Positions 36,687 through 54,877 of a stretch of DNA of 64,000 bases are shown piece after piece; position 1 is the first letter of the stretch; each line of letters begins with the position of its first letter. The position numbers and the translations under genes are program-made. This DNA is from a virus. The notes beneath the pieces are model-generated. The model ran no database searches and had not been told where the DNA came from. It saw nothing but the letters and a program-made list of their open reading frames with translations. The stretch is from positions 15,719 to 79,718 of IMG/VR virus record IMGVR_UViG_3300024259_002316. One strand, given 5' to 3'.

Positions 36687-37892
36687 ATGGCAAAACAAAT
36701 AATCACAAGTCTTTTAGACACAGACCTTTATAAACTAACCATGCAACAGGCGGTGCTCCAGTTGTTCCCAAAATCTGCGGTAACTTATAGGTTTAAGAAC
36801 AGGGGGGATCAAAGATTTAATGCCGATTTCCTACAAAAACTCCAAGACCAAATATTTTTAATGTCATCAATTCAACTAACTCCAGAAGAATATTCGTGGA
36901 TTAAGAGGGAAATTCCTTTCTTTAAATCTTTATATATTGAATATTTAAAGAATTACCGTTTTAATCCAAACGAGGTTATGGTTAGTTTGGGTCAAGATGG
37001 TGATATTCTTTTAAATATAAAAGGATTATGGGCTTCTACAATACTCTGGGAAGTGCCTCTGATGGCTATAATTAGCGAACTTTACTTTAGAGAAATAGAT
37101 ACTGAATGGAGACCTAGCGATGTCGAGGTAGAGGTTCGAGCAGGAGATAAGATGAGAGACCTACAAAGTGCTCAATGTCTTTATGCCGACTTTGGGACAA
37201 GGCGTAGAAGAGGGTTCTGGGTTCAGGATGACGTGGTTGGTGTCATGGCAAGGGCCCAAAAGAATGCTCACTTTCCCTGTTTTATAGGAACAAGTAATGT
37301 CTATTTTGCTATGAAGTATAATATTAAACCTATCGGGACGATGGCACACGAATGGTTTATGGGTATGAGTGTTCTAGAAGGTTTATATAATGCAAATTAT
37401 TTTGCTTTGGAAAATTGGGTAAGAGTTTATCATGCAGATCTAGGTATTGCTCTAACTGATACTTATAGTTTTGATGCCTTTCTTAAAGATTTTAAAATGG
37501 AATGGGCCAAGATTTATGACGGTGTTCGTCATGATAGTGGAAATCCTTGTTTCTTCGCGGATAAAATAATTGAAATGTATAAGGGTTATGGGATAGATCC
37601 TCTATCTAAAACCATTGTTTTTAGCGATAGTCTCACCACAGATAAGGCAATTCAGATAAAAGCATATTGTGAAGGTAGAATAAAAGTTAGCTTCGGCATA
37701 GGGACTCACTTTACTAACGATTTTGAAAATAGCAAAGCTCTCAATATGGTTATCAAGATGTGGTCCTGTGCCGCAAGCGAAAGACATAGACAAATACCTG
37801 TAGTTAAACTAAGCGATGAGAATGGTAAGGTTATGGGAGATCCAGATGCTGTAAAAGTCGCTAAATGGATGTTTTTCGGAGAAAAATTATAA
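36687..37892 (+). CDS. pncB: Nicotinate phosphoribosyltransferase
   Basis: SLLDTDLYKLTMQQAV, DFGTRRR, GTSNV, GTMAHEW, LTDTY, GVRHDSG, IVFSDSL, FGIGT, VKLSD. Confidence 0.93.
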   Translation: MAKQIITSLLDTDLYKLTMQQAVLQLFPKSAVTYRFKNRGDQRFNADFLQKLQDQIFLMSSIQLTPEEYSWIKREIPFFKSLYIEYLKNYRFNPNEVMVSLGQDGDILLNIKGLWASTILWEVPLMAIISELYFREIDTEWRPSDVEVEVRAGDKMRDLQSAQCLYADFGTRRRRGFWVQDDVVGVMARAQKNAHFPCFIGTSNVYFAMKYNIKPIGTMAHEWFMGMSVLEGLYNANYFALENWVRVYHADLGIALTDTYSFDAFLKDFKMEWAKIYDGVRHDSGNPCFFADKIIEMYKGYGIDPLSKTIVFSDSLTTDKAIQIKAYCEGRIKVSFGIGTHFTNDFENSKALNMVIKMWSCAASERHRQIPVVKLSDENGKVMGDPDAVKVAKWMFFGEKL

Positions 37893-37894
37893 GA

Positions 37895-38575
37895 ATGAAA
37901 ACAAAAACTACTATACATAAATTTAGTTTAGCAGTTAAATTAAAAAACTGCCAAAATAACTTTCTTCCTTTTAAAGAGGCAAGAGTATTTGTAAGAAAAT
38001 TAAAGCTAAAAAATTATAAGGAATGGAGAGAATATTGCATATCAGGCCAAAAACCTAAAAACATTCCATCTACTCCCCACATGGTTTATAAAAATAAAGG
38101 ATGGAAAAATGTTTACAATTGGTTGGGAACGCCTCAAAAAATGCATGTAGGTAAAGATTTTATTCCGTTTGAAGATGCTAGAGAATTTGCAAAGAGTTTA
38201 AAATTAAAAAGTTGTAGAGAATGGAAAAAATATGCAAAGTCAGGAAGAAGACCCAAAAATATTCCATCTAATCCTTATGCAATTTATAAAGATAAAGGAT
38301 GGGTTGGTTGGGGAGATTGGACGGGAGAGAATAACTTATCTAACATAGAAATAAATGAAAACCTTCTTCCTTTTAAAGAGGCAAGAGCATTTGCAAGAAA
38401 ATTAAAGTTAAAAAGCCAAAAAGAATGGTTTGCATATTTTAACAAACATGAAAGACCGTTTAATATTCCAATAAGCCCACACCAGTCTTATAAAAATAAA
38501 GGATGGATTAGTTGGGGAGATTGGTTAGGAATAAGTCATTTACAAATATTTCATAATCGTACAAAAAAATCCTAA
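37895..38575 (+). CDS. Protein made of three 'integrase-repeat'-like units
   Basis: Three repeats of F(L/I)PF.EAR.F...LKLK...EW..Y......P.NIP..P...YK.KGW..W..W.G; no catalytic domain seen. Confidence 0.75.
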   Translation: MKTKTTIHKFSLAVKLKNCQNNFLPFKEARVFVRKLKLKNYKEWREYCISGQKPKNIPSTPHMVYKNKGWKNVYNWLGTPQKMHVGKDFIPFEDAREFAKSLKLKSCREWKKYAKSGRRPKNIPSNPYAIYKDKGWVGWGDWTGENNLSNIEINENLLPFKEARAFARKLKLKSQKEWFAYFNKHERPFNIPISPHQSYKNKGWISWGDWLGISHLQIFHNRTKKS

Positions 38576-38592
38576 GAACAAGGAATAAAAAA

Positions 38593-38979
38593 ATGGATAA
38601 AAGAAAAAAAAGATTTAATTGGTACACTTGGTTTATTATTCTATGTATAGCATATGCTACCTATGGAATAACTAGAGCAATAGCTTCGAAAATAAATACA
38701 AATAGAATCATAGAAGATATTAGAATACTAACAATATTCCATCCTGATTTTAACGAAAAAGATCGACCTTACTTAAAAAGATTTTTTATAGAAAATAAAG
38801 GATGGTGGGGCCAAAAAGTTTGGACAAGAAATCAACATGTTAAAGATGAGAATAGAGAATTATATAATAAACTACTACAATATAACGAAAAAAAGCTAAA
38901 AGAATTGGACAATGAAACAAATAGACGTGTTGAAGAACATGGAAAAACATATAGAACAAAATTCGAGCAAGGATTGTAA
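38593..38979 (+). CDS. Hypothetical membrane-anchored protein
   Basis: N-terminal hydrophobic helix. Confidence 0.55.
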   Translation: MDKRKKRFNWYTWFIILCIAYATYGITRAIASKINTNRIIEDIRILTIFHPDFNEKDRPYLKRFFIENKGWWGQKVWTRNQHVKDENRELYNKLLQYNEKKLKELDNETNRRVEEHGKTYRTKFEQGL

Positions 38980-38999
38980 AAAATAAAGATAAGAAATTA

Positions 39000-39653
39000 G
39001 TGAAACAATACCTAGAAATACAAGGACCAAACAAAGCCCCCAGAGAAAATTGTATTGCTTTCTACAAACATGATGGAAGCAACATAAGAGCAGAATGGTC
39101 TCGCAAAAGAAGTTGGTATAAATTTGGCAGTAGAAAAGTTCTTATAGATAAGACACATGATTTAGGAGAAGCAGTAGATATATTTCTTAATACCTATGGG
39201 GATGATTTAGAATATATTTTTAAACAAGATAAAAATTTTAGAAGCTGTCAAAATGTGACAGTATTTGGAGAATTCTTTGGTAAAAATAGTTTCGCAGGAC
39301 AACATGAAGAAAATGATCCAAAAGAAATAGTTCTTTTCGATGTTAATATTCATAAAAAAGGAATAATGTCTCCTACCGATTTTATAAAAATATTTGGGCA
39401 TTTAAAAATTCCCGAAATTATTTATCAAGGCAAATTTAATGAAAGTTTTATCCAAAATGTCAAAGAAGGAAAATATCCTGTGGAAGAAGGAATAGTGGCA
39501 AAAGGACTTCTTCCTCATGGCAAACCTCCGCATAACCTATGGATGGCAAAAGTAAAAACAAAAGCATGGATAGAAAAACTAAAAAGAGAATATGAGATTT
39601 ATCCCGAAAAATTTAAGAATGTATTAAAAGATAATTTACAGGAGCAAACGTAA
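39000..39653 (+). CDS. ATP-dependent RNA ligase-like (Rnl2-type adenylation domain)
   Basis: Motif I KHDGSN, FGEFFG, LFDV, EEGIVAK, MAKVK; GTG start. Confidence 0.75.
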   Translation: MKQYLEIQGPNKAPRENCIAFYKHDGSNIRAEWSRKRSWYKFGSRKVLIDKTHDLGEAVDIFLNTYGDDLEYIFKQDKNFRSCQNVTVFGEFFGKNSFAGQHEENDPKEIVLFDVNIHKKGIMSPTDFIKIFGHLKIPEIIYQGKFNESFIQNVKEGKYPVEEGIVAKGLLPHGKPPHNLWMAKVKTKAWIEKLKREYEIYPEKFKNVLKDNLQEQT

Positions 39654-40183
39654 TGGAAGATATGCAGAGAATAAGTGGTTTTGAATGTCATGGCGCAAAT
39701 GGAAGCTTTAAAGGTTCTGTTTTTATAGAGTCTAAAAAATATGATGCTCTATTAAAAGAGATAAAAGATAATATATCTTTCGAAGCTTCTGAGCATTTGC
39801 GATCACTCCAAAGTTTGATTGAAATGGAATGGGCTAAAGAGAATGAAACTGATAAACGTAACGATCATGCAGAGGAGTTAGAGAATCTATTTAAATCAGC
39901 AGGATTTGATCCAATTTACGTTAAGACAATAAACAATGAATACTGTGGAAAAGCATGTTGTTATAAATATCCTTGGATTATTGTTACTACCAGGAAAGGA
40001 AATATTAAACTTGGATGGAGAAAGAGCGTAATGAATCTCGACTGGTCAGATTCAGATATTAACGTTGATGGTAATGAAATATTTAAATATGAAAAAGGAA
40101 CGAGAGGAACGAATTATATTCATTGTTGGGGCAAAGATAAAGCTGTTGAATATTTGAAAAAACTTAACTCTGAGAAAGGATAA
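39653..40183 (+). CDS. Hypothetical protein
   Basis: 176-aa coupled ORF. Confidence 0.65.
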   Translation: MEDMQRISGFECHGANGSFKGSVFIESKKYDALLKEIKDNISFEASEHLRSLQSLIEMEWAKENETDKRNDHAEELENLFKSAGFDPIYVKTINNEYCGKACCYKYPWIIVTTRKGNIKLGWRKSVMNLDWSDSDINVDGNEIFKYEKGTRGTNYIHCWGKDKAVEYLKKLNSEKG

Positions 40184-40186
40184 ACG

Positions 40187-41371
40187 ATGAAGAAAATACT
40201 TATTACAGGCGGTCCAGTCCATGCTTATCTTGATGATGTAAAAATCATTACAAATAGATTCAAAGGTGGGCTAATGGCTGACCTTGCAGAAAAATTTATT
40301 AAAATGAGCCATTATACATCTATTTCTAAAGATAGAATACATGTGACATATCTTTGTTCCAAGGATTCCAAACAACCTAGGAATATAGTAAATAGCGATC
40401 CTAATAAACCATGTGAAGAAATTACTCCTTATCTCACGGTAGTCTATCATAATGGTATTGATGACTATATAGGCAAAGTGTTATGTCTTGCTCCACAAAT
40501 GGACGCTATAATCCTGGGAGCAGCAGTCGCTAATCTTGTCCCAAAAGACAGAATCACAGGAAAATTTCCCAGTCATGATTATAAGATTGGAGATACTATC
40601 CCTATTGATTTTACAATAGCACCAAGAGTTATTGATGCAGTAAAAGAGGTTAATCCAAATGTCCATCTATTTGGGTTTAAACTTCTTTCTGGTGTTGATT
40701 ATTATGAGCTTGTAAGAGCCGCTTATGGAGTTTTGTTAGAGTCTAAAGCAGTAACAGTTTTTGCTAACGATGCAAAAGATTTAATGCAAAAATATGCTGT
40801 AACAAAAGAAAGAGGTGTCCACCCTCTTCATAATGATGAATTGCCACAATGGATTTTAGATAGAATGAATGAAAAATATTATTCTACTAAAACTGCTGAA
40901 CTTCCTATGACTGATAAAATGAAAGAGGGAAAACTTGAGTTGATGAAAATTTTAGCAGAGCATAGACATTCTTTTGTCAAAACAGATGAAGGATATGTGT
41001 TTGGTTCAGGAGCATTACTGTTAGAGAAAGACCCTTTGAGATTTGTAACTACAGCTAGAGGAAAAGAAGAATGGGAAGATTTTGTTTTTGTAGATGCTGT
41101 GAATCATGATAATAGAAAGGTGTTTTGCACACCCCATAAAAAAGCATCTTTAAACGCTCCTCTTTTTCATTATATGTTTAGCCATTTAGCTGACATAAAA
41201 TATATTCTTCATTTCCACCATCAAAGAGCAGGACTTATAACTCTAGACTATGCTACTCCTGGAACTGATCAAGATTCAACTATGAGGACATTGTTACCAT
41301 ATCGTTCCTTTAATATTAAAGGTCATGGATGCATCCTTTCCTATGGTGAAAATGGAGAATTATTGAAATGA
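40187..41371 (+). CDS. CoaB-like (phosphopantothenate-cysteine ligase) domain fused to class II aldolase-like domain
   Basis: KILITGGP....LDDVKIITNRFKG, IILGAAVAN, LFGFKL, VFAND; C-terminal F.TTARGK...ASLNAP...ILHFHH...PGT...KGHG. Confidence 0.65.
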   Translation: MKKILITGGPVHAYLDDVKIITNRFKGGLMADLAEKFIKMSHYTSISKDRIHVTYLCSKDSKQPRNIVNSDPNKPCEEITPYLTVVYHNGIDDYIGKVLCLAPQMDAIILGAAVANLVPKDRITGKFPSHDYKIGDTIPIDFTIAPRVIDAVKEVNPNVHLFGFKLLSGVDYYELVRAAYGVLLESKAVTVFANDAKDLMQKYAVTKERGVHPLHNDELPQWILDRMNEKYYSTKTAELPMTDKMKEGKLELMKILAEHRHSFVKTDEGYVFGSGALLLEKDPLRFVTTARGKEEWEDFVFVDAVNHDNRKVFCTPHKKASLNAPLFHYMFSHLADIKYILHFHHQRAGLITLDYATPGTDQDSTMRTLLPYRSFNIKGHGCILSYGENGELLK

Positions 41372-42030
41372 GATATTTATCTTGCTGTGAATACGAAAAA
41401 ATATATCAAAGATATATTAATCCTGATAATGTGTATCAAATGATGAGTTTGGCAGGAGATTATCAGGGCAAAAGTTTTTTAGATCTTTGTTGCGGAGGTG
41501 GAGCCGCTACTCAAGACGCGATAAGAAGAGGAGCTTCTTTTTGTGCAATGGTTGACCAAGAAAAAAGAATGATACCTGACAAATTCTTTAAGTCTGACAA
41601 TATAGAAATTTTTGATTGTTCTATTTTTCAAAGTTTTTATCAGATGGAGCAAAAAATACCATCTAAACAATTTGATATCGTTTTTTGCCGACAAGGAGTT
41701 AATTATTGGTTAAATCCTAAAATGATAGAACTACTAGATTGTTTTATCTCCCCAGGAGGTGTTTTTATATTTAACACGTTTAATACAAAACCATCAAAAG
41801 AACCAGTAGTTAAAGAATATAAAATTAGGGGAGTAAGTTTTGTCGAAGTTAGTTATATAGCAGGTATCGATGTTGTATATCATATACAAATAAGAGAAGG
41901 ATATGAACCTCATATGACACAATTTGGGTGGATAAGTGAAGAAAAATTTCGACAAAGTTTTGGAGACAAATATGATATAGAAATAGTTAAAAGAGGCAAA
42001 ACAGATATTTATAAATGTGTAAAGAAATAA
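41368..42030 (+). CDS. Class I SAM-dependent methyltransferase
   Basis: FLDLCCGGG, MVD, FDIVFCRQ, PGGVFIF. Confidence 0.8.
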   Translation: MRYLSCCEYEKIYQRYINPDNVYQMMSLAGDYQGKSFLDLCCGGGAATQDAIRRGASFCAMVDQEKRMIPDKFFKSDNIEIFDCSIFQSFYQMEQKIPSKQFDIVFCRQGVNYWLNPKMIELLDCFISPGGVFIFNTFNTKPSKEPVVKEYKIRGVSFVEVSYIAGIDVVYHIQIREGYEPHMTQFGWISEEKFRQSFGDKYDIEIVKRGKTDIYKCVKK

Positions 42031-42051
42031 TAGTGTTGTAAGGAATAAATT

Positions 42052-42267
42052 ATGAATTGGACCGAAATTGTTATAATAATATATACTTTTTTATTGTTTT
42101 TATATGCCTGTTTTTTGACATGTAGAGTAACTTACATACAAGAATTAGAAGAACAAAATATAAAAGATAAATATGAAAAAAGAACAAATTTACATGTAAA
42201 AATATATTATATAGCAGCAGGCGCTTTGATGACTATGATTGTTGTTTTTGATAAATGTTTTAAATAA
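42052..42267 (+). CDS. Small membrane protein
   Basis: Two hydrophobic segments; AAGGA RBS. Confidence 0.5.
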   Translation: MNWTEIVIIIYTFLLFLYACFLTCRVTYIQELEEQNIKDKYEKRTNLHVKIYYIAAGALMTMIVVFDKCFK

Positions 42268-42280
42268 GAGAAAGAAAAAA

Positions 42281-43051
42281 ATGGATTACCAATTAGAAAT
42301 ATATAATGTATCTCAATGGATGAAAAACTACGCTGAAAAAGCAGGTAGCGATGGCTATGTGGTTGGACTAAGTGGGGGCATCGATTCCGCTGTTGTCGCC
42401 TGTCTTGCCGTAAAAGCTCTTGGCAAAGACAATGTTATCGGAGTATCAATTCCATGTCAAACAAAAGACGAAAGCATGCAAGATGCTGCATATCTTTCCA
42501 TGGATCTCGGGATTGCTTTAAGAGTCTTTCCGATTGATGAAGCATACGAAAATTTCTATAGCAGACTTTTACCTGGAAAGAAGGAAACGCACCAATTGAC
42601 TCAGGCCAATATGAAAGCAAGACTCAGAATGACTGTTTTGTATATGATGGCCAATCAATTTAATTATCTTGTTGCTGGCACAGGAAATCTATCAGAGTTG
42701 ATGGTGGGTTATTGTACCAAATATGGAGATGGGGGAGTTGATATAGAATCATTAGGAAACTACTACAAATCAGAAGTATATAAGATGGCAGAACTTATGC
42801 CAGAGATACCTGATTCTACTAAAACAAAAGCTCCATCCGCCGACCTGTGGGAGGGGCAAACTGACGAAGAAGAACTTGGGATGAGTTATGTTGAACTAGA
42901 TACTATCCTTAGAGACATAAATCGGCAAGGTCTAGTTTTGCCATCGACAATACTTGCTTTAGGAGAAGAAAAAACTGGTAGAGTTCAATCTATGATCAAA
43001 ACTGCTGAGCACAAAAACAATACTCCGCCCAGATATAAAAGAAATTCCTAA
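42281..43051 (+). CDS. nadE: NH3-dependent NAD+ synthetase (start revised)
   Basis: GLSGGIDSAVVA, NMKARLRM, GTGNLSE, GYCTKYGDG, KAPSADLWEGQTDEEELG; no glutaminase domain. Confidence 0.93.
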   Translation: MDYQLEIYNVSQWMKNYAEKAGSDGYVVGLSGGIDSAVVACLAVKALGKDNVIGVSIPCQTKDESMQDAAYLSMDLGIALRVFPIDEAYENFYSRLLPGKKETHQLTQANMKARLRMTVLYMMANQFNYLVAGTGNLSELMVGYCTKYGDGGVDIESLGNYYKSEVYKMAELMPEIPDSTKTKAPSADLWEGQTDEEELGMSYVELDTILRDINRQGLVLPSTILALGEEKTGRVQSMIKTAEHKNNTPPRYKRNS

Positions 43052-43055
43052 TATT

Positions 43056-43283
43056 ATGATTGAATCAAAATGTCCAAAATGTGAAAAACACTTTAGGTCA
43101 GAACTTTTTGATAGTTCATCGAGATTTAAAGATAAAGATAAATTTAATTATTGGTATATTACCCATGCTCGCGACTTTTCTCAAGATAATAAACTACGAG
43201 AAGGGTACGTATTAAGATGCCACCACTGTAATCAGATATTTGAAATAAAATTTGATCCTGTGCAAGACGAAAAGGAAAAATGA
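43056..43283 (+). CDS. Small zinc-ribbon protein
   Basis: CPKC...CHHC. Confidence 0.6.
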   Translation: MIESKCPKCEKHFRSELFDSSSRFKDKDKFNYWYITHARDFSQDNKLREGYVLRCHHCNQIFEIKFDPVQDEKEK

Positions 43284-43597
43284 AAATGGCATTAGATGAA
43301 ATTAAAAAGAAAATAGCTCTTTTTATTGGAGATCTTAATGAGTATCAAAGTTATTTATATGATAGATGGGTTGATGAAAAAGAACCTAAAAATTTTACCT
43401 TTTATGCTGATAGTACGAAAGCTGAATTTGAAAAAAATAAAAAAGTAAATTGTAAAACCTCTGTATTCGTTAGTTTTAATAAAGAACCTTTTGGCTTCAC
43501 TTTTGACTTTGAAGGATTAAGAGTTAATATCTATTATTATTTTGATTCCGAAGCTGGATTGCATTATTGGGGATGGGGAACAAATCCTACACCTTAA
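43280..43597 (+). CDS. Hypothetical protein
   Basis: 105-aa coupled ORF. Confidence 0.55.
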   Translation: MKMALDEIKKKIALFIGDLNEYQSYLYDRWVDEKEPKNFTFYADSTKAEFEKNKKVNCKTSVFVSFNKEPFGFTFDFEGLRVNIYYYFDSEAGLHYWGWGTNPTP

Positions 43598-43623
43598 TAA
43601 AAACTAGAAATATGAATACAAAA

Positions 43624-43705
43624 ACTAACCATCTAAGAATACTCAAAGATGGTTAGTCTCTATAAAATCAAAATAGATTTTCCCTGTTAGGGGGATCTAT
43701 TTTGT
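43624..43705. terminator. Two hairpins between convergent genes (bidirectional terminator candidate)
   Basis: ACTAACCATCT/AGATGGTTAGT and CAAAATAGAT/ATCTATTTTG inverted repeats. Confidence 0.65.
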
Positions 43706-44977: not shown

Positions 44978-45009
44978 ATCTCCTTTGTCAGTTTTTCACA
45001 ATCTTCAGT

Positions 45010-46722: not shown

Positions 46723-46753
46723 TATATGTCTCCATAAGTTATATTATACTTAT

Positions 46754-46782: not shown

Positions 46783-46846
46783 TTGCTAATATGAATTTAG
46801 TAATTTTCCGATATAAGGATATTAACTTTTTAGTAGGATAATTATA

Positions 46847-47614: not shown

Positions 47615-47620
47615 GAAAAA

Positions 47621-47742: not shown

Positions 47743-47756
47743 TCCTTTTTCATAAA

Positions 47757-47827
47757 GCCTTGGTAGTTCAGTGGGCGAACAGCTATTTCCGAAATAGAAA
47801 ATGAGGGTCCGATTCCCTTCCAGGGCA
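47757..47827 (+). tRNA. tRNA-Arg(CCG), no encoded CCA
   Basis: Cloverleaf: GCCTTGG/CCAGGGC acceptor, GTTC/GAAC D-stem, loop TT-CCG-AA, atypical T-loop TCCGATT. Confidence 0.75.
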
Positions 47828-47840
47828 GTAGGAAGATAAA

Positions 47841-48404
47841 ATGAATGAAGAAATATCTAAAAATTACATCATAACGGATAGCCATTTTTCCCATGAAGCT
47901 ATGCAGCAATATTGTGGTAGACCCTTTGATTTTGAGAAAAAGATAATCAAGCAATGGCAGGCAACCGTTAGCCCTCAAGATATAGTGTTTCATCTAGGAG
48001 ATGTCACATGGGGATCTCAAGGACAGCTACAGCAGATAATGCATGGATTGCCAGGAACTAAAATTCTTATTAGAGGAAATCATGACAAAGACCATTCTAA
48101 TAATTGGTTTATTAAAGCAGGTTTTTCTGTTGTTCTAGAAAAAGCTCAAATAAGTAAAGTTATCTTGTCCCATTTCCCTGCCATTTTAAGTCGAGAAGAA
48201 ATAGATTTTAACATTATTAATATCCATGGGCATTTTCATAATATGCCTCCAAAAAAATGGGAAAAGCAATTAATAGAAAGAATTACTTATAATCATTATT
48301 TACTTAGTTTAGAAGACGTTAATTATAAGCCAATATCATTAGAAGCAGCTATAAAAAGAAAATTTATCAAAAATTCCAAAAAATTATTGGAAAGTGAAAA
48401 ATGA
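47841..48404 (+). CDS. Calcineurin-like metallophosphoesterase
   Basis: TDSHF.H, HLGD, RGNHD, LSHFP, IHGHFH. Confidence 0.88.
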   Translation: MNEEISKNYIITDSHFSHEAMQQYCGRPFDFEKKIIKQWQATVSPQDIVFHLGDVTWGSQGQLQQIMHGLPGTKILIRGNHDKDHSNNWFIKAGFSVVLEKAQISKVILSHFPAILSREEIDFNIINIHGHFHNMPPKKWEKQLIERITYNHYLLSLEDVNYKPISLEAAIKRKFIKNSKKLLESEK

Positions 48405-48459
48405 TATGATACAAAGAAAACGTTATTAACCATTACTTTTATTTAGTGTGAGGTAAAAC

Positions 48460-48732
48460 ATGTTTACACTTAAGAAGACAGGCGAAGCTCTTATTGATAA
48501 AAATATAAAGAAGGTTATATCCTTTGATATAACTGTTCAGGCAATGCTTAAAGGTATTCATGATTGCCAAGAGCAGATAAATACTAATACTGAGACTATC
48601 AAAGTGCTCCAGGCAGAAAATGAAAGAATTACAGAGGTGCAAACTAGAGCATTTAAGCTTAAGGATAGTCTAGAGAAGACATTAGAAGAATTTAAAGATC
48701 CAGAAAAAAAGAGGGAAAAAGAAAAAAAATAA
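48460..48732 (+). CDS. Small coiled-coil protein
   Basis: GAGGT RBS; heptad pattern. Confidence 0.6.
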   Translation: MFTLKKTGEALIDKNIKKVISFDITVQAMLKGIHDCQEQINTNTETIKVLQAENERITEVQTRAFKLKDSLEKTLEEFKDPEKKREKEKK

Positions 48733-48748
48733 CAATTCTATACGATAT

Positions 48749-48821
48749 TGAGCAGTAGTTTAATTGGTGGAACATCTGTCTCTGGAACAGAAGGTTGCAG
48801 GTTCGAGTCCTGCCTGCTCAG
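48749..48821 (+). tRNA. tRNA-Gln(CUG), no encoded CCA
   Basis: TGAGCAG/CTGCTCA acceptor with U1-A72 and G73; stem TCTGT/ACAGA; loop CT-CTG-GA; T-loop TTCGAGT. Confidence 0.88.
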
Positions 48822-48915
48822 TTATAAAAGGTAAATATGAACGACAACACAAACAATTTGGAGCCTGAACCGTACGGTTGGAGATGGTGCGGACTCTTTA
48901 AGATTCGGGACAATC

Positions 48916-49215
48916 GTGAATATTCCAAGGGAAATATCTACAGATATTGTAAAATATCTCCAAGAAAAGAAAGGACAATCTGTTCCTGACATAGCTAAGT
49001 TTATGTCCACCACTCCCACTCACATCCAAGCAATTATCGATCAAAAGTCAAATCTTCAATTAGAAAATGTCGATAACTACCTCAACAATCTCAATATGAA
49101 ATTTTGGGAATTTATTTCTGAAGCCATTCCCGAAGAGCATCTGTCTCCCAGAATAAGAAGTAAAATTCAACTCTGTCAAGAATTAGCTGAGACTATAAAA
49201 AAGAAGAAACATTAA
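48916..49215 (+). CDS. XRE-like helix-turn-helix protein
   Basis: KGQSVPDIAKFMSTTPTHIQAI...NLQL. Confidence 0.55.
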   Translation: MNIPREISTDIVKYLQEKKGQSVPDIAKFMSTTPTHIQAIIDQKSNLQLENVDNYLNNLNMKFWEFISEAIPEEHLSPRIRSKIQLCQELAETIKKKKH

Positions 49216-49222
49216 AAAGTCC

Positions 49223-49251
49223 TTGCAAGTGAAAGTATATTTTGATATAAT
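49223..49251 (+). promoter_or_regulatory. Sigma-70-like promoter
   Basis: TTGCAA-GTGAAAGTATATTTTGA(17)-TATAAT. Confidence 0.7.
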
Positions 49252-49323
49252 ACTACTATTGATAATAGTATAATTATATAAATAACTATAAAATAAGGAC
49301 TTATACAAAAAGTTTAAATAAAG

Positions 49324-49767
49324 ATGGAAAAAATTGAACAAAAAGACCCAGGAGTAAAGGTAGGGGTAACGTCCATCATTGTAAGAGAAGGGAAAATATT
49401 GCTTGGTCTTAGAGGAGATGCTTGCGAAACAGCTAGGAACGAATGGGCCTACCCTGGAGGCAGAATGGACTATGGAGAAGATCCTATTACCTCTATAGCA
49501 AGAGAAGTTCATGAAGAAACGTTTATGTATGTACGTAAAAAAGATATAAAATTTCTTACTTGGGTCAATGAGTTCTTTCCCGAAGATAATAAGCATTATG
49601 TTAGTTTGGTATTTTGGATGACAAATCTAAAAGGAGACCCCATAGTAACAGAAAAAGATAAATGTAAAGAATGGAGATGGTTCGATCCAGATGACCTACC
49701 TGATAATACTTTTTGGGCATCTAAATTGAACATTAAAAAATATAGAGATAGAATAAAAAATGGCTAG
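49324..49767 (+). CDS. Nudix hydrolase (MutT/NUDT15-like)
   Basis: Nudix box GGRMDYGEDPITSIAREVHEET; EKDKCKEWRWF. Confidence 0.88.
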   Translation: MEKIEQKDPGVKVGVTSIIVREGKILLGLRGDACETARNEWAYPGGRMDYGEDPITSIAREVHEETFMYVRKKDIKFLTWVNEFFPEDNKHYVSLVFWMTNLKGDPIVTEKDKCKEWRWFDPDDLPDNTFWASKLNIKKYRDRIKNG

Positions 49768-50266
49768 AAAACAGACAACATGGATAGTGGACGTGGGAGA
49801 GGGAGATACCGAAGAATATCCAACAAAAAAAGAAGCAGAGATAGCAGAGGCAGAGTATCGCATAGATAAAGAAATTTATACTTTAACACAAATTTTTAGA
49901 AACTATTTTAAGGATTTTTATGACAAAGGGACTGGAGACAGACATAATAAATATATTCATCTATGTGTAGATTGAGGGATGAAATTATTAGAATATGAAT
50001 GCAAATTCGACGAACACAGAAATGAAAGAGGAGAGTTAGTATATAAACATGATGGAAAAATTATCACATTTTTAGATGGCACTCGATGTGCAGAATGTGA
50101 TAGAAAAGCTTTTATTCTATTTCAAAAAATGATTGCAGATTATAATAGAAAAAAACAAATAAATATTATAATAGATATCAGAAATTGGTCAGATACGTGC
50201 TCCCAACCCAAGCAAGAGTTGTTGCAGATTCTGAAAATAGTGGGATTCTGGGATAAAAATCATTAA
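49760..50266 (+). CDS. Two small hypothetical ORFs (49760..49975; 49979..50266)
   Basis: Coupled ORFs in the track with RBS-like sequences. Confidence 0.5.
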
Positions 50267-50366
50267 AATTCCAGACAATGAGTTTTTTCAATTAGTAGGT
50301 AAGAAAGACCTAAAAACGACGTAAAAAAGGTAAAAATGACCAAAAACGACAAAAAAAGGTAAAAAG

Positions 50367-52445
50367 ATGTCAAAAACAGACCTATTTGAACAAAATACTC
50401 AAAAAAGAATCAAAGAACTTGAAAAAACGATTATAGCTCTTGATACGGCTTTTCATGTAACAGGAGATGATTGCATCGACCCTTTTACAGGAGAAGTTGT
50501 ACTTGATAATGAGTATGATGCTCTTAAAAAAGAGCTTGAAAATCTACATCCTACATCTAAAATATTTAAAGATGTAACTGCTGCCAAATCATCTAAAATA
50601 AAAAATAAGATTATCCACGACCCTCCTATGACTTCTATTAATAAGTGCAATGGAACAGAAAAAGAAAAAGAAGCAATTCTTATGAAATTTTTTGAAGATT
50701 GTCGCAAAATAGATAAAGACATAGCAAGTCAGAAAAGCTATCCTGTTTGGTTGGAAAAATTCTTCACTATGTCATATAAACATGACGGTTTAGCTTTATC
50801 TTGTGAATATGAAAATGGAGATTTAAAAAGAGTAGGACTGCGTTCTAAAAGTGGGCAAGACGGTATTGACGTAACAGATTTAGCAAAATATATTGCAGGT
50901 ATTCCCCAAAACCTTAAAGACCCTGTAACTTGTAAGATTAGAGGAGAAGTCGAAACTCCAATTTCTGATTTTATAAGAGTAAGTGAAGAACTCGGAGATG
51001 ATGCTAAAGCTAATCCTAGAGCGCACACTGCTGGAAGTATGAATCACAAAACAGCAAAGAAGATGAAAGATCGAGGATTAAGATTTACAGCTTATAATGT
51101 TGTAGGTATTAAAAATCCTCCATACAAGACAGAAATCGAAAGAGCAAAGTGGACATCGAAATTAGGTTTTCATTATGTTAAAACAATTCCTTTTACTTTT
51201 GATATGTTGAAAACATTTGAAGACCAACACCGTAGATTAAATTTTATGGTGGATGGTGCTGTTATCTCTATTGGTAATTTAGAACTGCAAAAACAAATGG
51301 GGCAATCTGGAAGTAAACTTACAGGTAATCCTAAAGGTAAAATTGCTTTTAAGTTCAAAGATGAAATTAAAACTGCCATTGTTAAAGATATAACATGGCA
51401 AACAGGAAGAACAGGCAATATTACTCCTGTTCTTATCTTTGACGGAATACAACTAGAAGGAACAACTGTTAGCAAATGCACTGCCCACAACCTTGGAATG
51501 ATTAAAACTCATAAAATTGGAATAGGTTCTGAAATTGAGATTATTAAATCAGGAAAGATTATTCCGAAAATAAATAAAGTTATTAAAGCCAAAGGTTCGG
51601 CAAAGATTCCTACAAATTGTCCTTCTTGTGGAGAACGTCTTTTGGAAGTAGATGGTTCTGATGGAGCATTATCTTTAATCTGTGACAATTCTGACTGCTC
51701 TGCTCAAAATGTAAAAAGTCTTAATCATTGGATGAAAGTTTTGGGAGTAAAAGGAATTGCAGGAAGCACGATTGAAAAACTTATTGATGCTGGTTTAATC
51801 CGAAAAAGATCAGACTTTTATAAGCTTACTTTGGGAACTTTGCTAAATAATGGTATCACCGAAAGAACAGCAGTTTTGATTCTTGCCAGAATATGGATGA
51901 TTCCATCTCCTGAACAAGAAAAAGATAATGTTGTGCTAAGAAATAAATTAAAACCGATATTAAAAATAAACATTCCAACAGAAAAATTCTTTGCAGCTTT
52001 CGGGATTAAAGAAGCTGGAAAAGAAGTTGGCAGATTACTATCTCAACAATATCAAGATTTTAATGAAATAAGAAACTTGACTATAAGCGAACTTGAATCT
52101 ATAGATGGTATTGGCTCTATTACGGCTAAAAACACAGTTGACTTCTTAACCAAAAATAAACACGAAATCGATCAGTTGCTTCAGTTCATAACTCTTGAAT
52201 CTGCCAAAAATAAAGGTGGGAAATTAGATGGACAAGTATTTGTTCTTTCTGGTTCTATAGAGGGAGGAAAAGACCTATGGAAAGAATCTATCGAGGAGCA
52301 AGGAGGAATAGTTAAAAGCAGCGTTAGCAAAAAAACAAATTATTTGGTTGCGGGAGATGGCTCTGGTAGTAAATCAGATAAAGCAGAAGAGTTGAATATC
52401 CCTATTCTAACTGTCGATGATTTAGAAAAAATGATAGATGACTGA
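50367..52445 (+). CDS. ligA: NAD+-dependent DNA ligase
   Basis: KHDG adenylation motif, RGEV, DGAV, AFKF, WQTGRTG.ITPV, C4 Zn finger, HhH, BRCT. Confidence 0.92.
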   Translation: MSKTDLFEQNTQKRIKELEKTIIALDTAFHVTGDDCIDPFTGEVVLDNEYDALKKELENLHPTSKIFKDVTAAKSSKIKNKIIHDPPMTSINKCNGTEKEKEAILMKFFEDCRKIDKDIASQKSYPVWLEKFFTMSYKHDGLALSCEYENGDLKRVGLRSKSGQDGIDVTDLAKYIAGIPQNLKDPVTCKIRGEVETPISDFIRVSEELGDDAKANPRAHTAGSMNHKTAKKMKDRGLRFTAYNVVGIKNPPYKTEIERAKWTSKLGFHYVKTIPFTFDMLKTFEDQHRRLNFMVDGAVISIGNLELQKQMGQSGSKLTGNPKGKIAFKFKDEIKTAIVKDITWQTGRTGNITPVLIFDGIQLEGTTVSKCTAHNLGMIKTHKIGIGSEIEIIKSGKIIPKINKVIKAKGSAKIPTNCPSCGERLLEVDGSDGALSLICDNSDCSAQNVKSLNHWMKVLGVKGIAGSTIEKLIDAGLIRKRSDFYKLTLGTLLNNGITERTAVLILARIWMIPSPEQEKDNVVLRNKLKPILKINIPTEKFFAAFGIKEAGKEVGRLLSQQYQDFNEIRNLTISELESIDGIGSITAKNTVDFLTKNKHEIDQLLQFITLESAKNKGGKLDGQVFVLSGSIEGGKDLWKESIEEQGGIVKSSVSKKTNYLVAGDGSGSKSDKAEELNIPILTVDDLEKMIDD

Positions 52446-53010
52446 AGAACATAAAATACAGATAATAAAACATATAGAACCAGAACCTCTTCGAGAGGTT
52501 GGAGATATTCTCTATCCTTTTGCAAATTGGGAAACCACATCCACAGGAGATGGATGGTATACAAGATTTCCTGAAGAATTTTACGAAGAAAAACCTTATT
52601 ACCCACTAACAGAAATTTCTCAGAATCCATGGGATGCTCTGATTAAACTGGGAGTAAATTGTTTCGACTTTAAAGAAAAGGTCCAATACGAATGCCCTTA
52701 TAATAAATATATTCATTTTTGGTGCATTCCTGTCATAATTTTTTCGGACAATATCGAATTATGGATAAATAAATATAATATTCCTCATTCTCGATCTTTT
52801 TGCGATCAAGCATGGGCAAAGAAATTTTTTCCTGTAAAAACAAAAAATGGATTACCATTTACAAAAATTCAAAGATCATTATTAGGACCAGGATATACTT
52901 CAAAAACACTTGTTAATAGTGGAAATGGATATTTATATGACTCTCTATTAGTATTAGATAATGGGGATTATCTTGGTGCAAAAGTTTGGATATGGTTTAG
53001 TAAGAAATGA
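52438..53010 (+). CDS. Hypothetical protein
   Basis: 190-aa coupled ORF. Confidence 0.6.
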   Translation: MTEEHKIQIIKHIEPEPLREVGDILYPFANWETTSTGDGWYTRFPEEFYEEKPYYPLTEISQNPWDALIKLGVNCFDFKEKVQYECPYNKYIHFWCIPVIIFSDNIELWINKYNIPHSRSFCDQAWAKKFFPVKTKNGLPFTKIQRSLLGPGYTSKTLVNSGNGYLYDSLLVLDNGDYLGAKVWIWFSKK

Positions 53011-53315
53011 GTTGGAATTATAGAGTAATATTGCATAAGGCGGGAGAATTAAAAGAAAATCCCAAATTAAAATGGGAAGAATATCTTGCAATACATGAGG
53101 TTTATTACGATGAGAATGACGTTCCTGAGTCAGTAACAAAAGAACCTATTACAATTTCTGGAGAAGAAGGAAAAAATTCTTTAGTCTCTATCAAATGGAC
53201 ATTAGAAGGAATATTAACGGCTTTACAAAAGCCAATTTTAAATTACGATACTCTAGAAGAAATAGACAAGGAGAAACAAAATGATTTTAGCAAAAGCATT
53301 AAAACAAAAGAATAG
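53007..53315 (+). CDS. Conserved-looking small phage protein
   Basis: MSWNYRVI...AIHEVYYD pattern. Confidence 0.6.
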   Translation: MSWNYRVILHKAGELKENPKLKWEEYLAIHEVYYDENDVPESVTKEPITISGEEGKNSLVSIKWTLEGILTALQKPILNYDTLEEIDKEKQNDFSKSIKTKE

Positions 53316-53712
53316 GTTAGCACAAAGGATATCAAAGTTACAAGAAGAGATTCAAGTGGAGAATAGCTCTCGAGTAGATGATCCAAAAAAAATCAATGTA
53401 GAAGATTCTTTGGCGGAACTAGAATCAACAACCGAAAAACTTATCAAAATTAAAATAGCTATCTTTGTTGCTTCTACGCCAGTGCGAGAGAATATCTTAC
53501 GACTTGGAGAATTGAAATCTAAAATTGTATTTCTAAAAGGCATAAGTACTATAGAAGGAAAAATTAGACATTACGAGAGAGGCGATGTTGAATACAGCGT
53601 CGCAAAAGACAAGATATGGGTAAAAAACCAAATAACAATATGCGAACAATCTATTGATTGTCTCCAAGACGAATTGGACACATTTAACCACACTACCAAT
53701 ATTGAAATATAA
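53281..53712 (+). CDS. Coiled-coil protein resembling the DIP1984/DUF6847 family
   Basis: M.LAKALK.KNRL...I..LQ..I...N; IDCLQDELD.FNHTT.IEI C-terminus. Confidence 0.55.
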   Translation: MILAKALKQKNRLAQRISKLQEEIQVENSSRVDDPKKINVEDSLAELESTTEKLIKIKIAIFVASTPVRENILRLGELKSKIVFLKGISTIEGKIRHYERGDVEYSVAKDKIWVKNQITICEQSIDCLQDELDTFNHTTNIEI

Positions 53713-53713
53713 T

Positions 53714-53896
53714 AGTTAGGAGGGTTGAAAGAACAGGCGAATAATGGCTAATCTTATGGGCCCCACAAGGGTTAAGACTGATTAGATCTGGATCTTTTAA
53801 AATAAAAACTCAAGACTCAATTTTACAAGATATAAGATGTAATCTGCAAAACTTAATATAAGTCAAATTTTCCTAAGTACTTTGATTCTCCTAACT
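53714..53896 (+). ncRNA. Candidate structured RNA immediately 3' of the DIP1984-like gene
   Basis: Closing stem AGTTAGGAG/CTCCTAACT; internal hairpin CTAATC-TTA..GCCC-CACAA-GGGT-TAAG-GATTAG; short (C/T)AAGA repeats. Confidence 0.5.
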
Positions 53897-53938
53897 TATA
53901 TAAATTTAGAAAAAAGTAGAAAAAAGTGAAAAAAAGAC

Positions 53939-53966
53939 TTGCATTTCAAAAGTGAAAGTGTATAAT
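53939..53966 (+). promoter_or_regulatory. Sigma-70-like promoter for the nicotinamidase-vWA operon
   Basis: TTGCAT-16-TATAAT preceded by AAAAAAGT(A/G) repeats. Confidence 0.65.
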
Positions 53967-54019
53967 AGCAGTTGTAGTGAAGAATAAGGTTACTAATAAT
54001 TTTTTGAAAGGAAGTAGCA

Positions 54020-54877
54020 ATGGCTGAAAGAATTGACTTGTTGATCATTGACCCACAAAATGACTTTTGTTCCCCCGACGCGAATGCAAAAAAGGGGACT
54101 CCTCAAGAAGGGAATGGAGTCTACGAAGGGACTCTGTATGTTCCTGGTGCAGAAAAAGACATGGAACGACTAGGAGAGATGGTCAAAAAGTTTGGTACCA
54201 AAATCAAGAAAATCCATGTAACTCTTGATTGCCACCACTTAATTGACGTAACTCATCCCTTGATGTGGAGGAACAGTGATGGGCAGAATCCTGACCCATT
54301 CTCCATCTTTGGTTCAAAAGAAATTAAAGATGGGGTCTGGACCCCTGTGTTTCCTTCTCTCCGTCAAAAGTTTATTGACTACTGCGAAGAACTCGAAACA
54401 GGGTGTCGATACCCATTATGTATTTGGCCTCCCCACTGTTTGATTGGAAGTCCTGGTAATAATGTTCTGCCTATATTATTCGATACTCTTCAAAAGTGGG
54501 AAGAGAACAGGACAGATAATGTGGATTATGTAAGTAAAGGAAGTAATCCTTTTACCGAACATTATTCGGCCGTCAAAGCAGAGGTTCCTGATGTTCAAGA
54601 TCCTTCAACGCAATTAAACACTCGTTTAATTCAAACGTTGATGGAGGCAGACCAAATTCTGATTGCAGGAGAAGCAGGTAGTCACTGTGTTAAATCAACT
54701 GTGGAAGATATCGCAGATGGTTTTCAAGATGATTCCTACATAAAAAAGATGATTCTTCTTGAAGATGCTGTCAGCCCTGTTCAAAGTCCATTCGTAGATT
54801 TTCCTGCTATTCAAGCTCAGTTTATTGCTGACATGAAGGCAAGGGGAATGCAAACCGCAAATACCACCGATTTTTAA
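54020..54877 (+). CDS. pncA: Nicotinamidase/isochorismatase-family hydrolase (PncA-like)
   Basis: LLIIDPQNDFC, D.H, WPPHCLIG, KG.NPFTEHYSA, AGEAGSHCV (catalytic D/K/C). Confidence 0.8.
   Translation: MAERIDLLIIDPQNDFCSPDANAKKGTPQEGNGVYEGTLYVPGAEKDMERLGEMVKKFGTKIKKIHVTLDCHHLIDVTHPLMWRNSDGQNPDPFSIFGSKEIKDGVWTPVFPSLRQKFIDYCEELETGCRYPLCIWPPHCLIGSPGNNVLPILFDTLQKWEENRTDNVDYVSKGSNPFTEHYSAVKAEVPDVQDPSTQLNTRLIQTLMEADQILIAGEAGSHCVKSTVEDIADGFQDDSYIKKMILLEDAVSPVQSPFVDFPAIQAQFIADMKARGMQTANTTDF

What the first reader, a model, noticed from the sequence alone, without database searches (positions are those of the whole stretch)
36687..54877. Phage-encoded deamidated (Preiss-Handler) NAD+ rebuilding route: PncA + PncB + NadE, a candidate third NAD-reconstitution pathway
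Seen: clear pncB (36687), nadE (42281) and pncA-like (54020) genes; pncB and pncA sit directly behind AGTGA-class early promoters. An NAD-dependent LigA, a macrodomain and a Nudix are also present. Known: Thoeris, DSR/SIR2, TIR and SEFIR defences deplete NAD+ to nicotinamide + ADPR, and the described phage countermeasures NARP1 (Adps+Namat) and NARP2 (Nampt+Nmnat) use amidated intermediates. Inference: this phage goes Nam -> nicotinate -> NaMN -> (NaAD) -> NAD, also removing nicotinamide. Caveats: the genes are dispersed, and no NadD/NadR adenylyltransferase or PRPP synthase is visible in the window. That step is host-supplied, encoded elsewhere, or NadE acts as an NMN synthetase as in Francisella.
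Basis: partly seen in the sequence, partly recalled or inferred. Interest (0 to 1): 0.85.

Follow-up and report, generated by a model that had tools for sequence, protein, structure and literature searches.

The report
Huge-phage nicotinamide-to-NAD salvage genes
A fragment of a roughly half-megabase marine phage really does carry three enzymes (a long-form nicotinamidase, PncB and NadE) of the nicotinamide-to-nicotinate-to-NAD+ recycling route, and they travel together in many huge phages. However, phage Preiss-Handler genes were already described in 2024, and the proposed anti-defence role is still untested.

Summary
pncB (36687-37892) and an ammonia-type nadE (42281-43051) pass curated family cut-offs. 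The 'pncA-like' gene (54020-54877) is a divergent long-form nicotinamidase: it fails curated HMM cut-offs, but its Asp/Lys/Cys triad and metal-site residues are invariant, and its closest folds are all nicotinamidases.

No NaMN adenylyltransferase or PRPP synthase lies in the 90-kb contig, which is about 19% of the genome. The closest complete relative (548 kb, syntenic) has a bona fide NadD. Our contig lacks it at the syntenic site.

Across 67 non-redundant huge-phage loci the long-form pncA is followed by vWA, PP2C and kinase genes in 61-62. pncB lies within 10 kb in 20 and nadE in 14. Bacterial chromosomes carry the same cassette next to pncB.

The deamidated salvage route is therefore well supported. 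The 'third NAD-reconstitution pathway' label is not: NARP3 is PnuC+NadR (2026), and Preiss-Handler clusters in 'NAD-jumbo phages' were published in 2024. A counter-defence role remains an inference.

Earlier reports of this scan describe the same nicotinamidase-vWA-PP2C-kinase/NAD cassette on other DNA. A word search returned 61 notes in at least 54 genomes, of which I read eight.

The parts
36562..36590 (+). sigma-70-like promoter before pncB (TTGATA-17-TATAAT, TG-extended, AAAGTGAA in the spacer)
   Evidence: It is the joint-best (11 of 12) promoter-like site in 36001-55900. Function is not shown.
36687..37892 (+). pncB, nicotinate phosphoribosyltransferase (401 aa)
   Evidence: passes the NF003704 and TIGR01514 cut-offs. 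It is 55% identical to the syntenic gene of the 548-kb relative G005.
42281..43051 (+). nadE, NH3-dependent NAD+ synthetase (256 aa from ATG 42281; the ORF opens at TTG 42239)
47841..48404 (+). calcineurin-like metallophosphatase. The same family recurs near pncA-like genes in 15 of 67 phage locus clusters.
49324..49767 (+). Nudix hydrolase with an intact Nudix box; substrate unknown. A related family recurs in the NAD neighbourhoods.
50367..52445 (+). NAD+-dependent DNA ligase LigA, an NAD consumer
   Evidence: adenylation, OB, HhH and BRCT domains
53939..53966 (+). sigma-70-like promoter before pncA (TTGCAT-16-TATAAT), conserved almost base for base in G005
54020..54877 (+). long-form nicotinamidase-like protein (PncA-like, 285 aa)
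54892..55632 (+). vWA protein with an intact MIDAS motif. It lies directly downstream of pncA-like in 62 of 67 phage locus clusters.
55659..55688 (+). intrinsic-terminator-like hairpin (13 pairs plus a T run) after the vWA gene
55923..56768 (+). PP2C-like phosphatase, part of the conserved cassette
57103..58827 (+). Ser/Thr-kinase-like protein (574 aa), part of the conserved cassette
34879..35382 (-). macrodomain protein (ADP-ribose binding or removing fold)
   Evidence: 37 bits, cut-off 22; weak likeness to the DarG macrodomain

Best explanation
The window is part of a marine huge phage of roughly 0.5 Mb. Its non-structural arm carries three enzymes of the deamidated (Preiss-Handler) NAD+ salvage route.

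The proposed steps are:
1. A long-form nicotinamidase turns nicotinamide into nicotinate.
2. PncB turns nicotinate into NaMN, using host PRPP and ATP.
3. NadE amidates NaAD to NAD+ with ammonia and ATP.

The step between 2 and 3 (NaMN to NaAD, NadD) is not encoded in the 90 kb held. It is done either by the universal host NadD or by a gene in the unsampled 80% of the genome.

The genes belong to an 'NAD island' conserved in huge phages and also found in bacterial chromosomes. Its hub is the cassette pncA-like, vWA, PP2C, Ser/Thr kinase.

The net effect is to recycle nicotinamide and keep the NAD+ pool up during infection. That would serve the phage's own NAD users, such as LigA. It would also blunt NAD+-cleaving defences, whose product is nicotinamide.

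Shown here: gene identities, conserved catalytic residues, fold and gene linkage. Inferred: enzyme activities, timing of expression and the benefit to the phage.
For: Gene identities: for pncB and nadE. See for the nicotinamidase-like protein.

It is phage DNA: the contig is syntenic from g036 to g094 with G005, a 548-kb IMG/VR record rated 100% complete. In G005 pncB, nadE and pncA stand in the same order.

Linkage in phages: 80 IMG/VR loci fall into 67 clusters at 90% PncA identity. Of these, vWA is nearby in 62, PP2C in 61 and kinase in 61, co-directional in nearly all loci and immediately downstream in most. pncB lies within 10 kb in 20 and nadE in 14, sometimes interleaved inside the cassette (L022, L027, L029). 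By my own rough estimate (about 21 kb sampled of roughly 350 kb), chance would give about 3-5% for a single-copy gene.

Whole-record counts: among 22 records over 200 kb with the pncA-like gene, 17 have a NAPRTase-family match (11 of them strong PncB), 17 have NadE and 18 have CTP_transf_like. Eight have strong PncB, NadE and CTP_transf_like together.

The missing step in relatives: NadD in G005 and G001 passes the equivalog cut-offs. NadM-like (14 loci) and NadD-like (6 loci) genes also sit in the neighbourhoods.

Bacteria: in a 6.18-Mb Capsulimonadaceae chromosome the order is pncA-like, vWA, PP2C, kinase, pncB, flanked by ordinary cell genes. In two 4.2-Mb chromosomes the pncA-like gene is directly followed by pncB.

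Shared inheritance: the best PncB homologues lie on contigs of the same lengths as those that carry the PncA-like homologues.
Against: No activity was measured. The nicotinamidase-like protein fails both curated HMM cut-offs. It also carries about 60 extra residues between the metal motif and the WPxHC motif.

The residue-level match of D70/H72 to the canonical D-x-H metal site rests on motif and secondary-structure position only. hhalign placed that segment differently.

In this phage the three genes are spread over 18 kb among unrelated genes. NadD is absent even at the site where G005 has it: the flanking homologues are 78 bp apart, and tblastn found nothing better than E=0.6.

Five of the 22 large records with the pncA-like gene have no NAPRTase-family match and five have no NadE (three lack both), so the cassette can exist without the rest of the route.

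Nothing here separates 'counter-defence' from 'general NAD supply'.
Confidence: 0.7

Rival explanations
1. Dedicated counter-defence. The trio exists specifically to rebuild NAD+ from the nicotinamide released by Thoeris, DSR, SIR2 or TIR NADases. It would be a NARP-like system working through deamidated intermediates.
For: Nicotinamide, the substrate of the first enzyme, is the NADase product. Proven phage systems NARP1, NARP2 and NARP3 show that NAD+ rebuilding is selected for in phages (10.1101/2024.02.11.579819; PMC13464706). ADP-ribose-related genes are nearby: the macrodomain and the Nudix. pncB and pncA have strong host-type promoters. The link to a signalling triad would fit a damage-sensing switch.
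Against: There is no experiment, and no host or defence system is known for this phage. The route costs PRPP and at least two ATP. It also needs a NadD that is not seen here. The same cassette with pncB sits in ordinary bacterial chromosomes, where it cannot be anti-defence against the cell's own systems. In the passages I searched, the NARP papers do not mention PncA, PncB or NadE.
Confidence: 0.3
2. The pncA-like protein belongs functionally to the vWA-PP2C-kinase switch and acts on something other than free nicotinamide. In that case pncB and nadE in this window are independent metabolic passengers, and the 'trio' is not a pathway.
For: Linkage to vWA, PP2C and kinase (61-62 of 67 clusters) is far tighter than to pncB (20) or nadE (14). 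pncA-like and vWA form a promoter-to-terminator unit. The protein fails the nicotinamidase HMM cut-offs and has a large insertion.
Against: All nicotinamidase catalytic residues are invariant, as is the nicotinamidase-type D-x-H...H metal motif (the specificity of that motif is from my own knowledge). The nearest folds are nicotinamidases, about five orders of magnitude ahead of RutB- or biuret-type amidases. pncB is directly adjacent in several phages and bacterial chromosomes, and sometimes sits inside the cassette.
Confidence: 0.1
3. Francisella-like bypass. NadE acts as an NMN synthetase (NaMN to NMN), so no NaMN adenylyltransferase is needed, and a host NMN adenylyltransferase finishes the job.
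For: The second-best solved-structure match of NadE is 3fiu, E=8.5e-39. I recall this entry as the F. tularensis NMN synthetase; the tool labels it only 'NH(3)-dependent NAD(+) synthetase'. No NadD is present in the contig. Some related phages carry NadM-like rather than NadD genes near the cassette.
Against: The best match is P. horikoshii NadE. The archaeal-type short NadE of M. jannaschii is a strict NAD synthetase with no NMN synthetase activity (PMC3376133). The closest complete relatives pair this NadE with a canonical NadD. The specificity residues could not be checked because the primary paper is not held.
Confidence: 0.08
4. The genes are host DNA next to a provirus, since IMG/VR flags the record as 'provirus', and are not phage genes.
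For: The IMG/VR end class is 'provirus'. The genes are of cellular type.
Against: The whole stretch from the structural genes through pncB, nadE, ligA and pncA to the contig end is collinear with a 548-kb complete huge-phage record. The three NAD genes and ligA also lie in the same region of a 461-kb record with terminal repeats. G+C content is uniform at 0.30-0.37.
Confidence: 0.02

Closest known systems
Preiss-Handler gene clusters of 'NAD-jumbo phages' (for example Kuafu_71 pncB-nadD-nadE; Microbiome 2024, PMC11662467)
   Same: Huge or jumbo phages carrying pncB and nadE, together with NAD-consuming enzymes such as ligases. The proposal is the same: the phage makes its own NAD+.
   Different: Here nadD is not found in the 19% of the genome that is held. 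The genes are dispersed over 18 kb rather than clustered. A divergent nicotinamidase adds an entry step from nicotinamide, and that gene heads a vWA-PP2C-kinase cassette. I found no mention of the cassette in the parts of that paper I read. That work is also annotation only.
NARP1 (Adps+Namat), NARP2 (Nampt+Nmnat) and NARP3 (PnuC+NadR): the experimentally shown phage NAD+ reconstitution pathways
   Same: Phage-encoded enzymes that rebuild NAD+. NARP2 also starts from nicotinamide.
   Different: None of their defining genes is present here. This route goes through deamidated intermediates, needs four steps, and has no experimental link to defence.
Bacterial salvage pathway I, PncA-PncB(-NadD)-NadE, for example the P. 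aeruginosa pncA-pncB1-nadE operon PA4918-4920 (PMC7318152)
   Same: The same enzyme families and the same chemistry.
   Different: The nicotinamidase is a 265-290 aa long form with a roughly 60-residue insertion, below the curated PncA thresholds. It is coupled to a signalling triad.
TerY-P triad (vWA + PP2C + Ser/Thr kinase; described as cited in PMC10542128)
   Same: The same three-domain gene architecture stands directly downstream of the pncA-like gene.
   Different: No PADLOC defence model matched the vWA or PP2C. The kinase had only weak hits to unrelated models. Here the triad is tied to an NAD salvage enzyme, not to tellurite-resistance or restriction genes.
Francisella tularensis NadE* (NMN synthetase, which I recall as PDB 3fiu)
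   Same: A short single-domain NadE of the same subgroup, and a good sequence match.
   Different: There is no evidence for altered substrate preference. The relatives keep NadD.

Membership tests
Nicotinamidase (PncA/Pnc1) | Isochorismatase-like fold closest to solved nicotinamidases | tested here: met
   The AF2 model has pLDDT 89.6. The Foldseek PDB top 11 and Swiss-Prot top 8 hits are nicotinamidases, with E from 9e-14 to 4e-8.
Nicotinamidase (PncA/Pnc1) | Catalytic triad Asp-Lys-Cys | tested here: met
   D11, K173 and C223 align with D8, K96 and C138 of M. tuberculosis PncA and with the E. coli PncA motifs (the residue numbers of the known enzymes are from my own knowledge). They are invariant in 32 homologues.
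Nicotinamidase (PncA/Pnc1) | Metal site Asp-x-His plus the His of the WPxHC motif | tested here: inconclusive
   H139 in WPPHC aligns with the third ligand. D70-x-H72 (and H79) are invariant and follow strand 2 as in known enzymes. However, hhalign aligned that segment differently, and no residue-level superposition was available.
Nicotinamidase (PncA/Pnc1) | Score above curated family cut-offs | tested here: not met
   Pfam PF00857 scores 22.9 against a cut-off of 27. NCBIfam NF008623 scores 30.7 against 174. NF008623 is a narrow model that passes in only 1 of 14 control genomes.
Nicotinamidase (PncA/Pnc1) | Genomic coupling to pncB | tested here: met
   pncB lies within 10 kb in 20 of 67 phage clusters and within 8 kb in 20 of 69 genome/MAG clusters. 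It is directly adjacent in several, including complete bacterial chromosomes.
Nicotinamidase (PncA/Pnc1) | Hydrolysis of nicotinamide to nicotinate | not testable with these tools
   This needs an enzyme assay.
PncB (ATP-dependent NAPRTase) | Equivalog-level HMM match over the full length | tested here: met
   TIGR01514 scores 447.9 (cut-off 269.55) and NF003704 scores 482.1 (cut-off 379).
NadE, NH3-dependent NAD+ synthetase | Equivalog-level HMM match and no glutaminase (CN-hydrolase) domain | tested here: met
   NF010587 scores 262.5 (cut-off 255) and TIGR00552 scores 240.1. It is a single-domain protein of 256-270 aa.
Complete Preiss-Handler pathway (the criterion for an 'NAD-jumbo phage') | NaMN adenylyltransferase (NadD/NadM) encoded by the phage | tested here: inconclusive
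   It is absent from the 90,403-bp contig and from the syntenic site. The contig is only about 19% of the genome, and relatives G005 and G001 have a bona fide NadD.
NARP1 | PRPS-like Adps plus Namat | tested here: not met
   There is no Pribosyltran_N match in the contig. The only NAPRTase-family gene is an equivalog PncB.
NARP2 | Nampt plus Nmnat | tested here: not met
   There is no CTP_transf_like match. The PRTase is PncB-type, not Nampt. This holds for the contig only.
NARP3 | PnuC transporter plus NadR-like enzyme | tested here: not met
   There is no NMN_transporter match and no CTP_transf_like match in the contig.
TerY-P triad | vWA, PP2C and Ser/Thr kinase genes in one co-directional unit | tested here: met
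TerY-P triad | Sequence membership in the known anti-phage TerY-P families | tested here: not met
   PADLOC gave no hit for the vWA or PP2C. The kinase had only weak hits to unrelated models.

The most novel reading that the evidence does not exclude
The long-form nicotinamidase may be the regulated entry point of an NAD island shared by huge phages and bacteria. A vWA-PP2C-kinase phospho-switch, invariably encoded beside it, would sense a signal such as metal or NAD-breakdown stress. It would then turn nicotinamide recycling on. In the phage this would give a switched Preiss-Handler counter-measure against NAD+-depleting immunity. I found no description of this coupling in the papers I could search. 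Earlier reports of this scan reached the same reading on other genomes.
Probability: 0.3. Interest if true: 0.8.

Novelty: new member of a known kind. Interest (0 to 1): 0.45.

Why it matters
If the route works as read, huge phages can recycle the nicotinamide left by NAD+-cleaving defences through a four-step deamidated pathway, different from the three proven phage systems. That would widen the set of genes to look for when predicting whether a phage escapes NAD-depletion immunity.

The more unusual point is not the trio itself. Its first enzyme is almost always encoded with a vWA protein, a phosphatase and a kinase, in both phages and bacteria. This hints at an undescribed control layer on NAD salvage.

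For this window alone the gain is modest:
- The pathway class was already published from annotation.
- One step is missing from the fragment.
- Nothing ties it to defence.

Tried and rejected
- **Close DNA relatives.** Megablast of 36687-43051 against GenBank phages found no match.
- **Hidden adenylyltransferase.** I grepped for HxGH, searched PF01467 at E<=1, ran HMMs built from the NadD-like and NadM-like neighbourhood families, and ran tblastn with five relatives' NadD/NadM proteins. All were negative.
- **PRPP synthase and PnuC.** Both are absent.
- **Does PncA-like bind the vWA protein?** Complex prediction gave no verdict, neither for nor against binding.
- **PADLOC.** No model matched PncA-like, vWA, PP2C, PncB or NadE, so I did not file the triad as TerY-P defence.
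- **Displacement test.** I asked whether bacterial genomes with the long-form gene lack a canonical PncA. Four of five had no hit above the NF008623 cut-off. That model passes in only 1 of 14 control genomes, and the genomes hold other isochorismatase-family genes, so the result is inconclusive.
- **Expression.** All 24 listed sequencing runs are DNA (seawater or marine metagenomes), with no RNA run, so I laid no reads.
- **NadE substrate preference.** The primary paper on Francisella NMN synthetase is not held. My recollection of its specificity residues was too uncertain to use.
- **hhalign of the metal motif.** It placed the canonical D-W-H segment against a different part of the insertion, so that feature is marked inconclusive.
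- **The 147-kb contig** that also carries this exact PncA-like protein was not returned by the look-up of encoding contigs. The extra roughly 57 kb could not be searched.

Full report
**What the DNA is.** The window is bases 15719-79718 of a 90,403-bp IMG/VR virus record. CheckV rates it 19% complete, which implies a genome near half a megabase. G+C is even at 0.30-0.37. The strand bias flips at about 36 kb, where a minus-strand structural block meets a plus-strand non-structural block. From the last structural genes to its end the contig is collinear with a 548-kb IMG/VR record rated 100% complete (G005). Protein identities are mostly 50-74% (range 30-74%). The 'provirus' flag of the record is therefore unlikely to mean host DNA. 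Exact copies occur in seawater metagenomes, and no RNA run was found.

**The three genes.**
- pncB (36687-37892) matches both NAPRTase Pfam domains. It passes the equivalog cut-offs of NCBIfam (TIGR01514 448 bits, NF003704 482 bits).
- nadE is a single-domain, ammonia-type NAD+ synthetase that passes NF010587 and TIGR00552.
- The third gene (54020-54877) is not a textbook pncA. Pfam Isochorismatase scores 22.9 against a cut-off of 27, and the E. coli-type PncA model 30.7 against 174.

**Evidence that the third gene is a nicotinamidase.** The best solved-structure sequence hit is M. tuberculosis PncA, aligning the IDxQNDFC, WPxHC, KG and SHC motifs. A profile of 32 homologues matches E. coli PncA with 97.6% probability over nearly its whole length. 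D11, K173 and C223 (the triad), D70, H72, H79 and H139 (metal-site candidates) and W136 are invariant. The AlphaFold model (pLDDT 89.6) finds nicotinamidases as its top 11 PDB hits and top 8 Swiss-Prot hits. These lie about five orders of magnitude in E-value ahead of RutB, biuret hydrolase and other relatives. The family is a 265-290 aa 'long form' with a roughly 60-residue insertion between the D-x-H motif and WPxHC. One caveat remains: the residue-level equivalence of D70/H72 to the canonical metal ligands is inferred, not superposed.

**The missing step.** The 90-kb contig holds no CTP_transf_like domain at E<=1 and no HxGH motif in any called ORF of 60 aa or more. The NadD-like and NadM-like family HMMs found nothing. 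tblastn with five relatives' enzymes gave nothing better than E=0.6. PRPP synthase is absent here and in four relatives, so PRPP must come from the host.

In G005 a bona fide NadD (TIGR00482 184 bits, GGTFNPIHVGH motif) sits 20 kb downstream of pncA. It lies between homologues of two genes that are only 78 bp apart in our contig. So this phage lacks nadD at the syntenic place. Whether it has one elsewhere cannot be told from 19% of the genome. Host NadD is near-universal (my own knowledge) and would serve.

A scan of IMG/VR with the family profile returned 80 loci, many on contigs of 200-548 kb. After collapsing near-identical copies, 67 clusters remained. The gene is followed by a vWA gene in 62, a PP2C gene in 61 and a kinase gene in 61, co-directional in nearly all loci and immediately downstream in most. 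pncB lies within 10 kb in 20, nadE in 14, and either one in 26. In some phages pncB and nadE sit inside the cassette (L027, L029) or directly before it (L022). By my own rough estimate, a single-copy gene in a genome of about 350 kb would fall in such a window about 3-5% of the time.

Other recurrent neighbours are a Nudix, a NadM-like NMNAT-Nudix fusion, a NadD-like gene and a metallophosphatase. Our window has the Nudix and the metallophosphatase. Across 22 records over 200 kb that carry the gene, 17 have a NAPRTase-family match (11 of them strong PncB), 17 have NadE and 18 have CTP_transf_like. Eight have all three strongly, often within about 10 kb of each other. The best PncB homologues lie on contigs of the same lengths as those carrying the long-form nicotinamidase homologues, so the two genes appear to have travelled together in this phage group.

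**Bacteria have it too.** The same profile finds the family in bacterial genomes and MAGs. In a complete 6.18-Mb Capsulimonadaceae chromosome the order is pncA-like, vWA, PP2C, kinase, pncB. The locus is flanked by a permease, a BlaR1-type peptidase, a flavin reductase and an ECF sigma factor. In two 4.2-Mb chromosomes pncA-like is directly followed by pncB without the triad. This pairing is the strongest context argument that the long form feeds PncB.

**Promoters.** A near-consensus, TG-extended sigma-70-type promoter lies 96 nt before pncB. A TTGCAT-16-TATAAT site lies 53 nt before pncA. Both have AAAGTGAA in the spacer, and the composite pattern occurs nowhere else in the window. The pncA promoter is kept almost base for base in G005 although the proteins differ by 26%. 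The G005 pncB promoter is a plain TTGACA-17-TATAAT. Host-type promoters fit early or middle expression, but that is inference. A strong terminator-like hairpin follows the vWA gene.

**What is known.** NARP1 and NARP2 are described in 10.1101/2024.02.11.579819. NARP3, published in August 2026, is PnuC plus a NadR-like enzyme (PMC13464706). Term searches of both papers found no mention of PncA, PncB or NadE. A 2024 Microbiome paper reports 174 'NAD-jumbo phages' with complete salvage or Preiss-Handler pathways. It includes pncB-nadD-nadE clusters and mentions phage pncA (PMC11662467). The class of finding is therefore published, at annotation level.

I found no paper that tests the deamidated route against NAD-depleting defence. 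I also found none that links a nicotinamidase to a vWA-PP2C-kinase triad. Earlier reports of this scan describe the same cassette on other DNA: a word search returned 61 notes in at least 54 genomes, of which eight were shown. I consulted them after my own analysis, and they agree with it.

**Reading.** The most likely function is nicotinamide recycling into NAD+ in the infected cell (confidence 0.7). The adenylyltransferase step and PRPP would be supplied by the host or by unsampled phage genes. Whether selection acts through defence evasion (0.3 as a dedicated role) or through general NAD supply cannot be decided in silico. General supply could feed the phage's NAD+-dependent LigA, which is present in the closest relatives but absent from three of the five NAD-island phages I checked.

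The Francisella-type NMN synthetase idea is possible but unnecessary. NadE matches P. horikoshii NadE best, and relatives keep NadD (PMC3376133). No defining gene of NARP1, NARP2 or NARP3 is present. The triad has the TerY-P architecture but matches no PADLOC defence model (PMC10542128). The complex prediction for PncA-like with vWA gave no verdict.

**Verdict.** This is a new member of a known kind (phage Preiss-Handler/NAD salvage genes). The unexplained and more interesting feature is the conserved coupling of the nicotinamidase to a signalling triad.

Noticed in passing
window 39000-39653, 45085-45600, 47841-48404; tRNAs at 47757-47827 and 48748-48822: An RNA-ligase-family gene, an AAA_33 (polynucleotide-kinase-like) kinase and a metallophosphatase lie between the NAD genes, next to tRNA-Arg(CCG) and tRNA-Gln(CTG). 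This could be an RNA or tRNA repair set.
   Followed up: no
window 40187-41371: A 394-aa protein has a DFP/CoaB-like domain (phosphopantothenate-cysteine-ligase type) and a weak class II aldolase match. It is conserved in G005 between pncB and nadE. A more distant huge phage (LR756500.1) encodes a CoaD-like adenylyltransferase fusion. This hints at CoA-pathway genes in these phages.
   Followed up: no
contig bases 85079-85155 (outside the window, about window position 69361-69437): G005 has a 132-aa ORF plus nadD between homologues of g087 and the DNA methyltransferase g088. This phage has only 78 bp there, so there was a clean gain or loss of nadD between close relatives.
   Followed up: yes
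G005 (IMG/VR 548-kb record; L035, L101, L129-L132) and several 'MAG' contigs: The PncB protein found on a contig of the same length (547,943 bp) as the phage record G005 is named at NCBI as from a Candidatus Asgardarchaeia MAG. Contigs of 40-410 kb carrying the cassette are filed under Patescibacteria/CPR MAGs. These look like huge-phage contigs binned into cellular MAGs.
   Followed up: no
L142 4283-7285 (minus strand; Capsulimonadaceae chromosome OZ244065.1): A 1000-aa protein with a WGR domain and an ATP-dependent DNA-ligase domain is encoded divergently just upstream of the bacterial pncA-vWA-PP2C-kinase-pncB operon.
   Followed up: no
L022 8300-9988 and the open frames of 560-700 aa: In 18 related phage loci NadE is about 560 aa long. 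In the representative (L022) the roughly 310-residue N-terminal part matched no Pfam family. It is not the CN-hydrolase glutaminase domain seen in LR756511.1.
   Followed up: no
window 61062-62330 and 62314-63330: There is a sialyltransferase-like (GT29) domain fused to a methyltransferase, followed by a capsule-synthesis-like gene. These are surface-glycan genes in a phage.
   Followed up: no
window 53713-53938: The 300-nt gap before pncA holds repeated GAAAAAAGT(A/G) units just upstream of the promoter. G005 has a similar AAAAAAGTGA element.
   Followed up: partly
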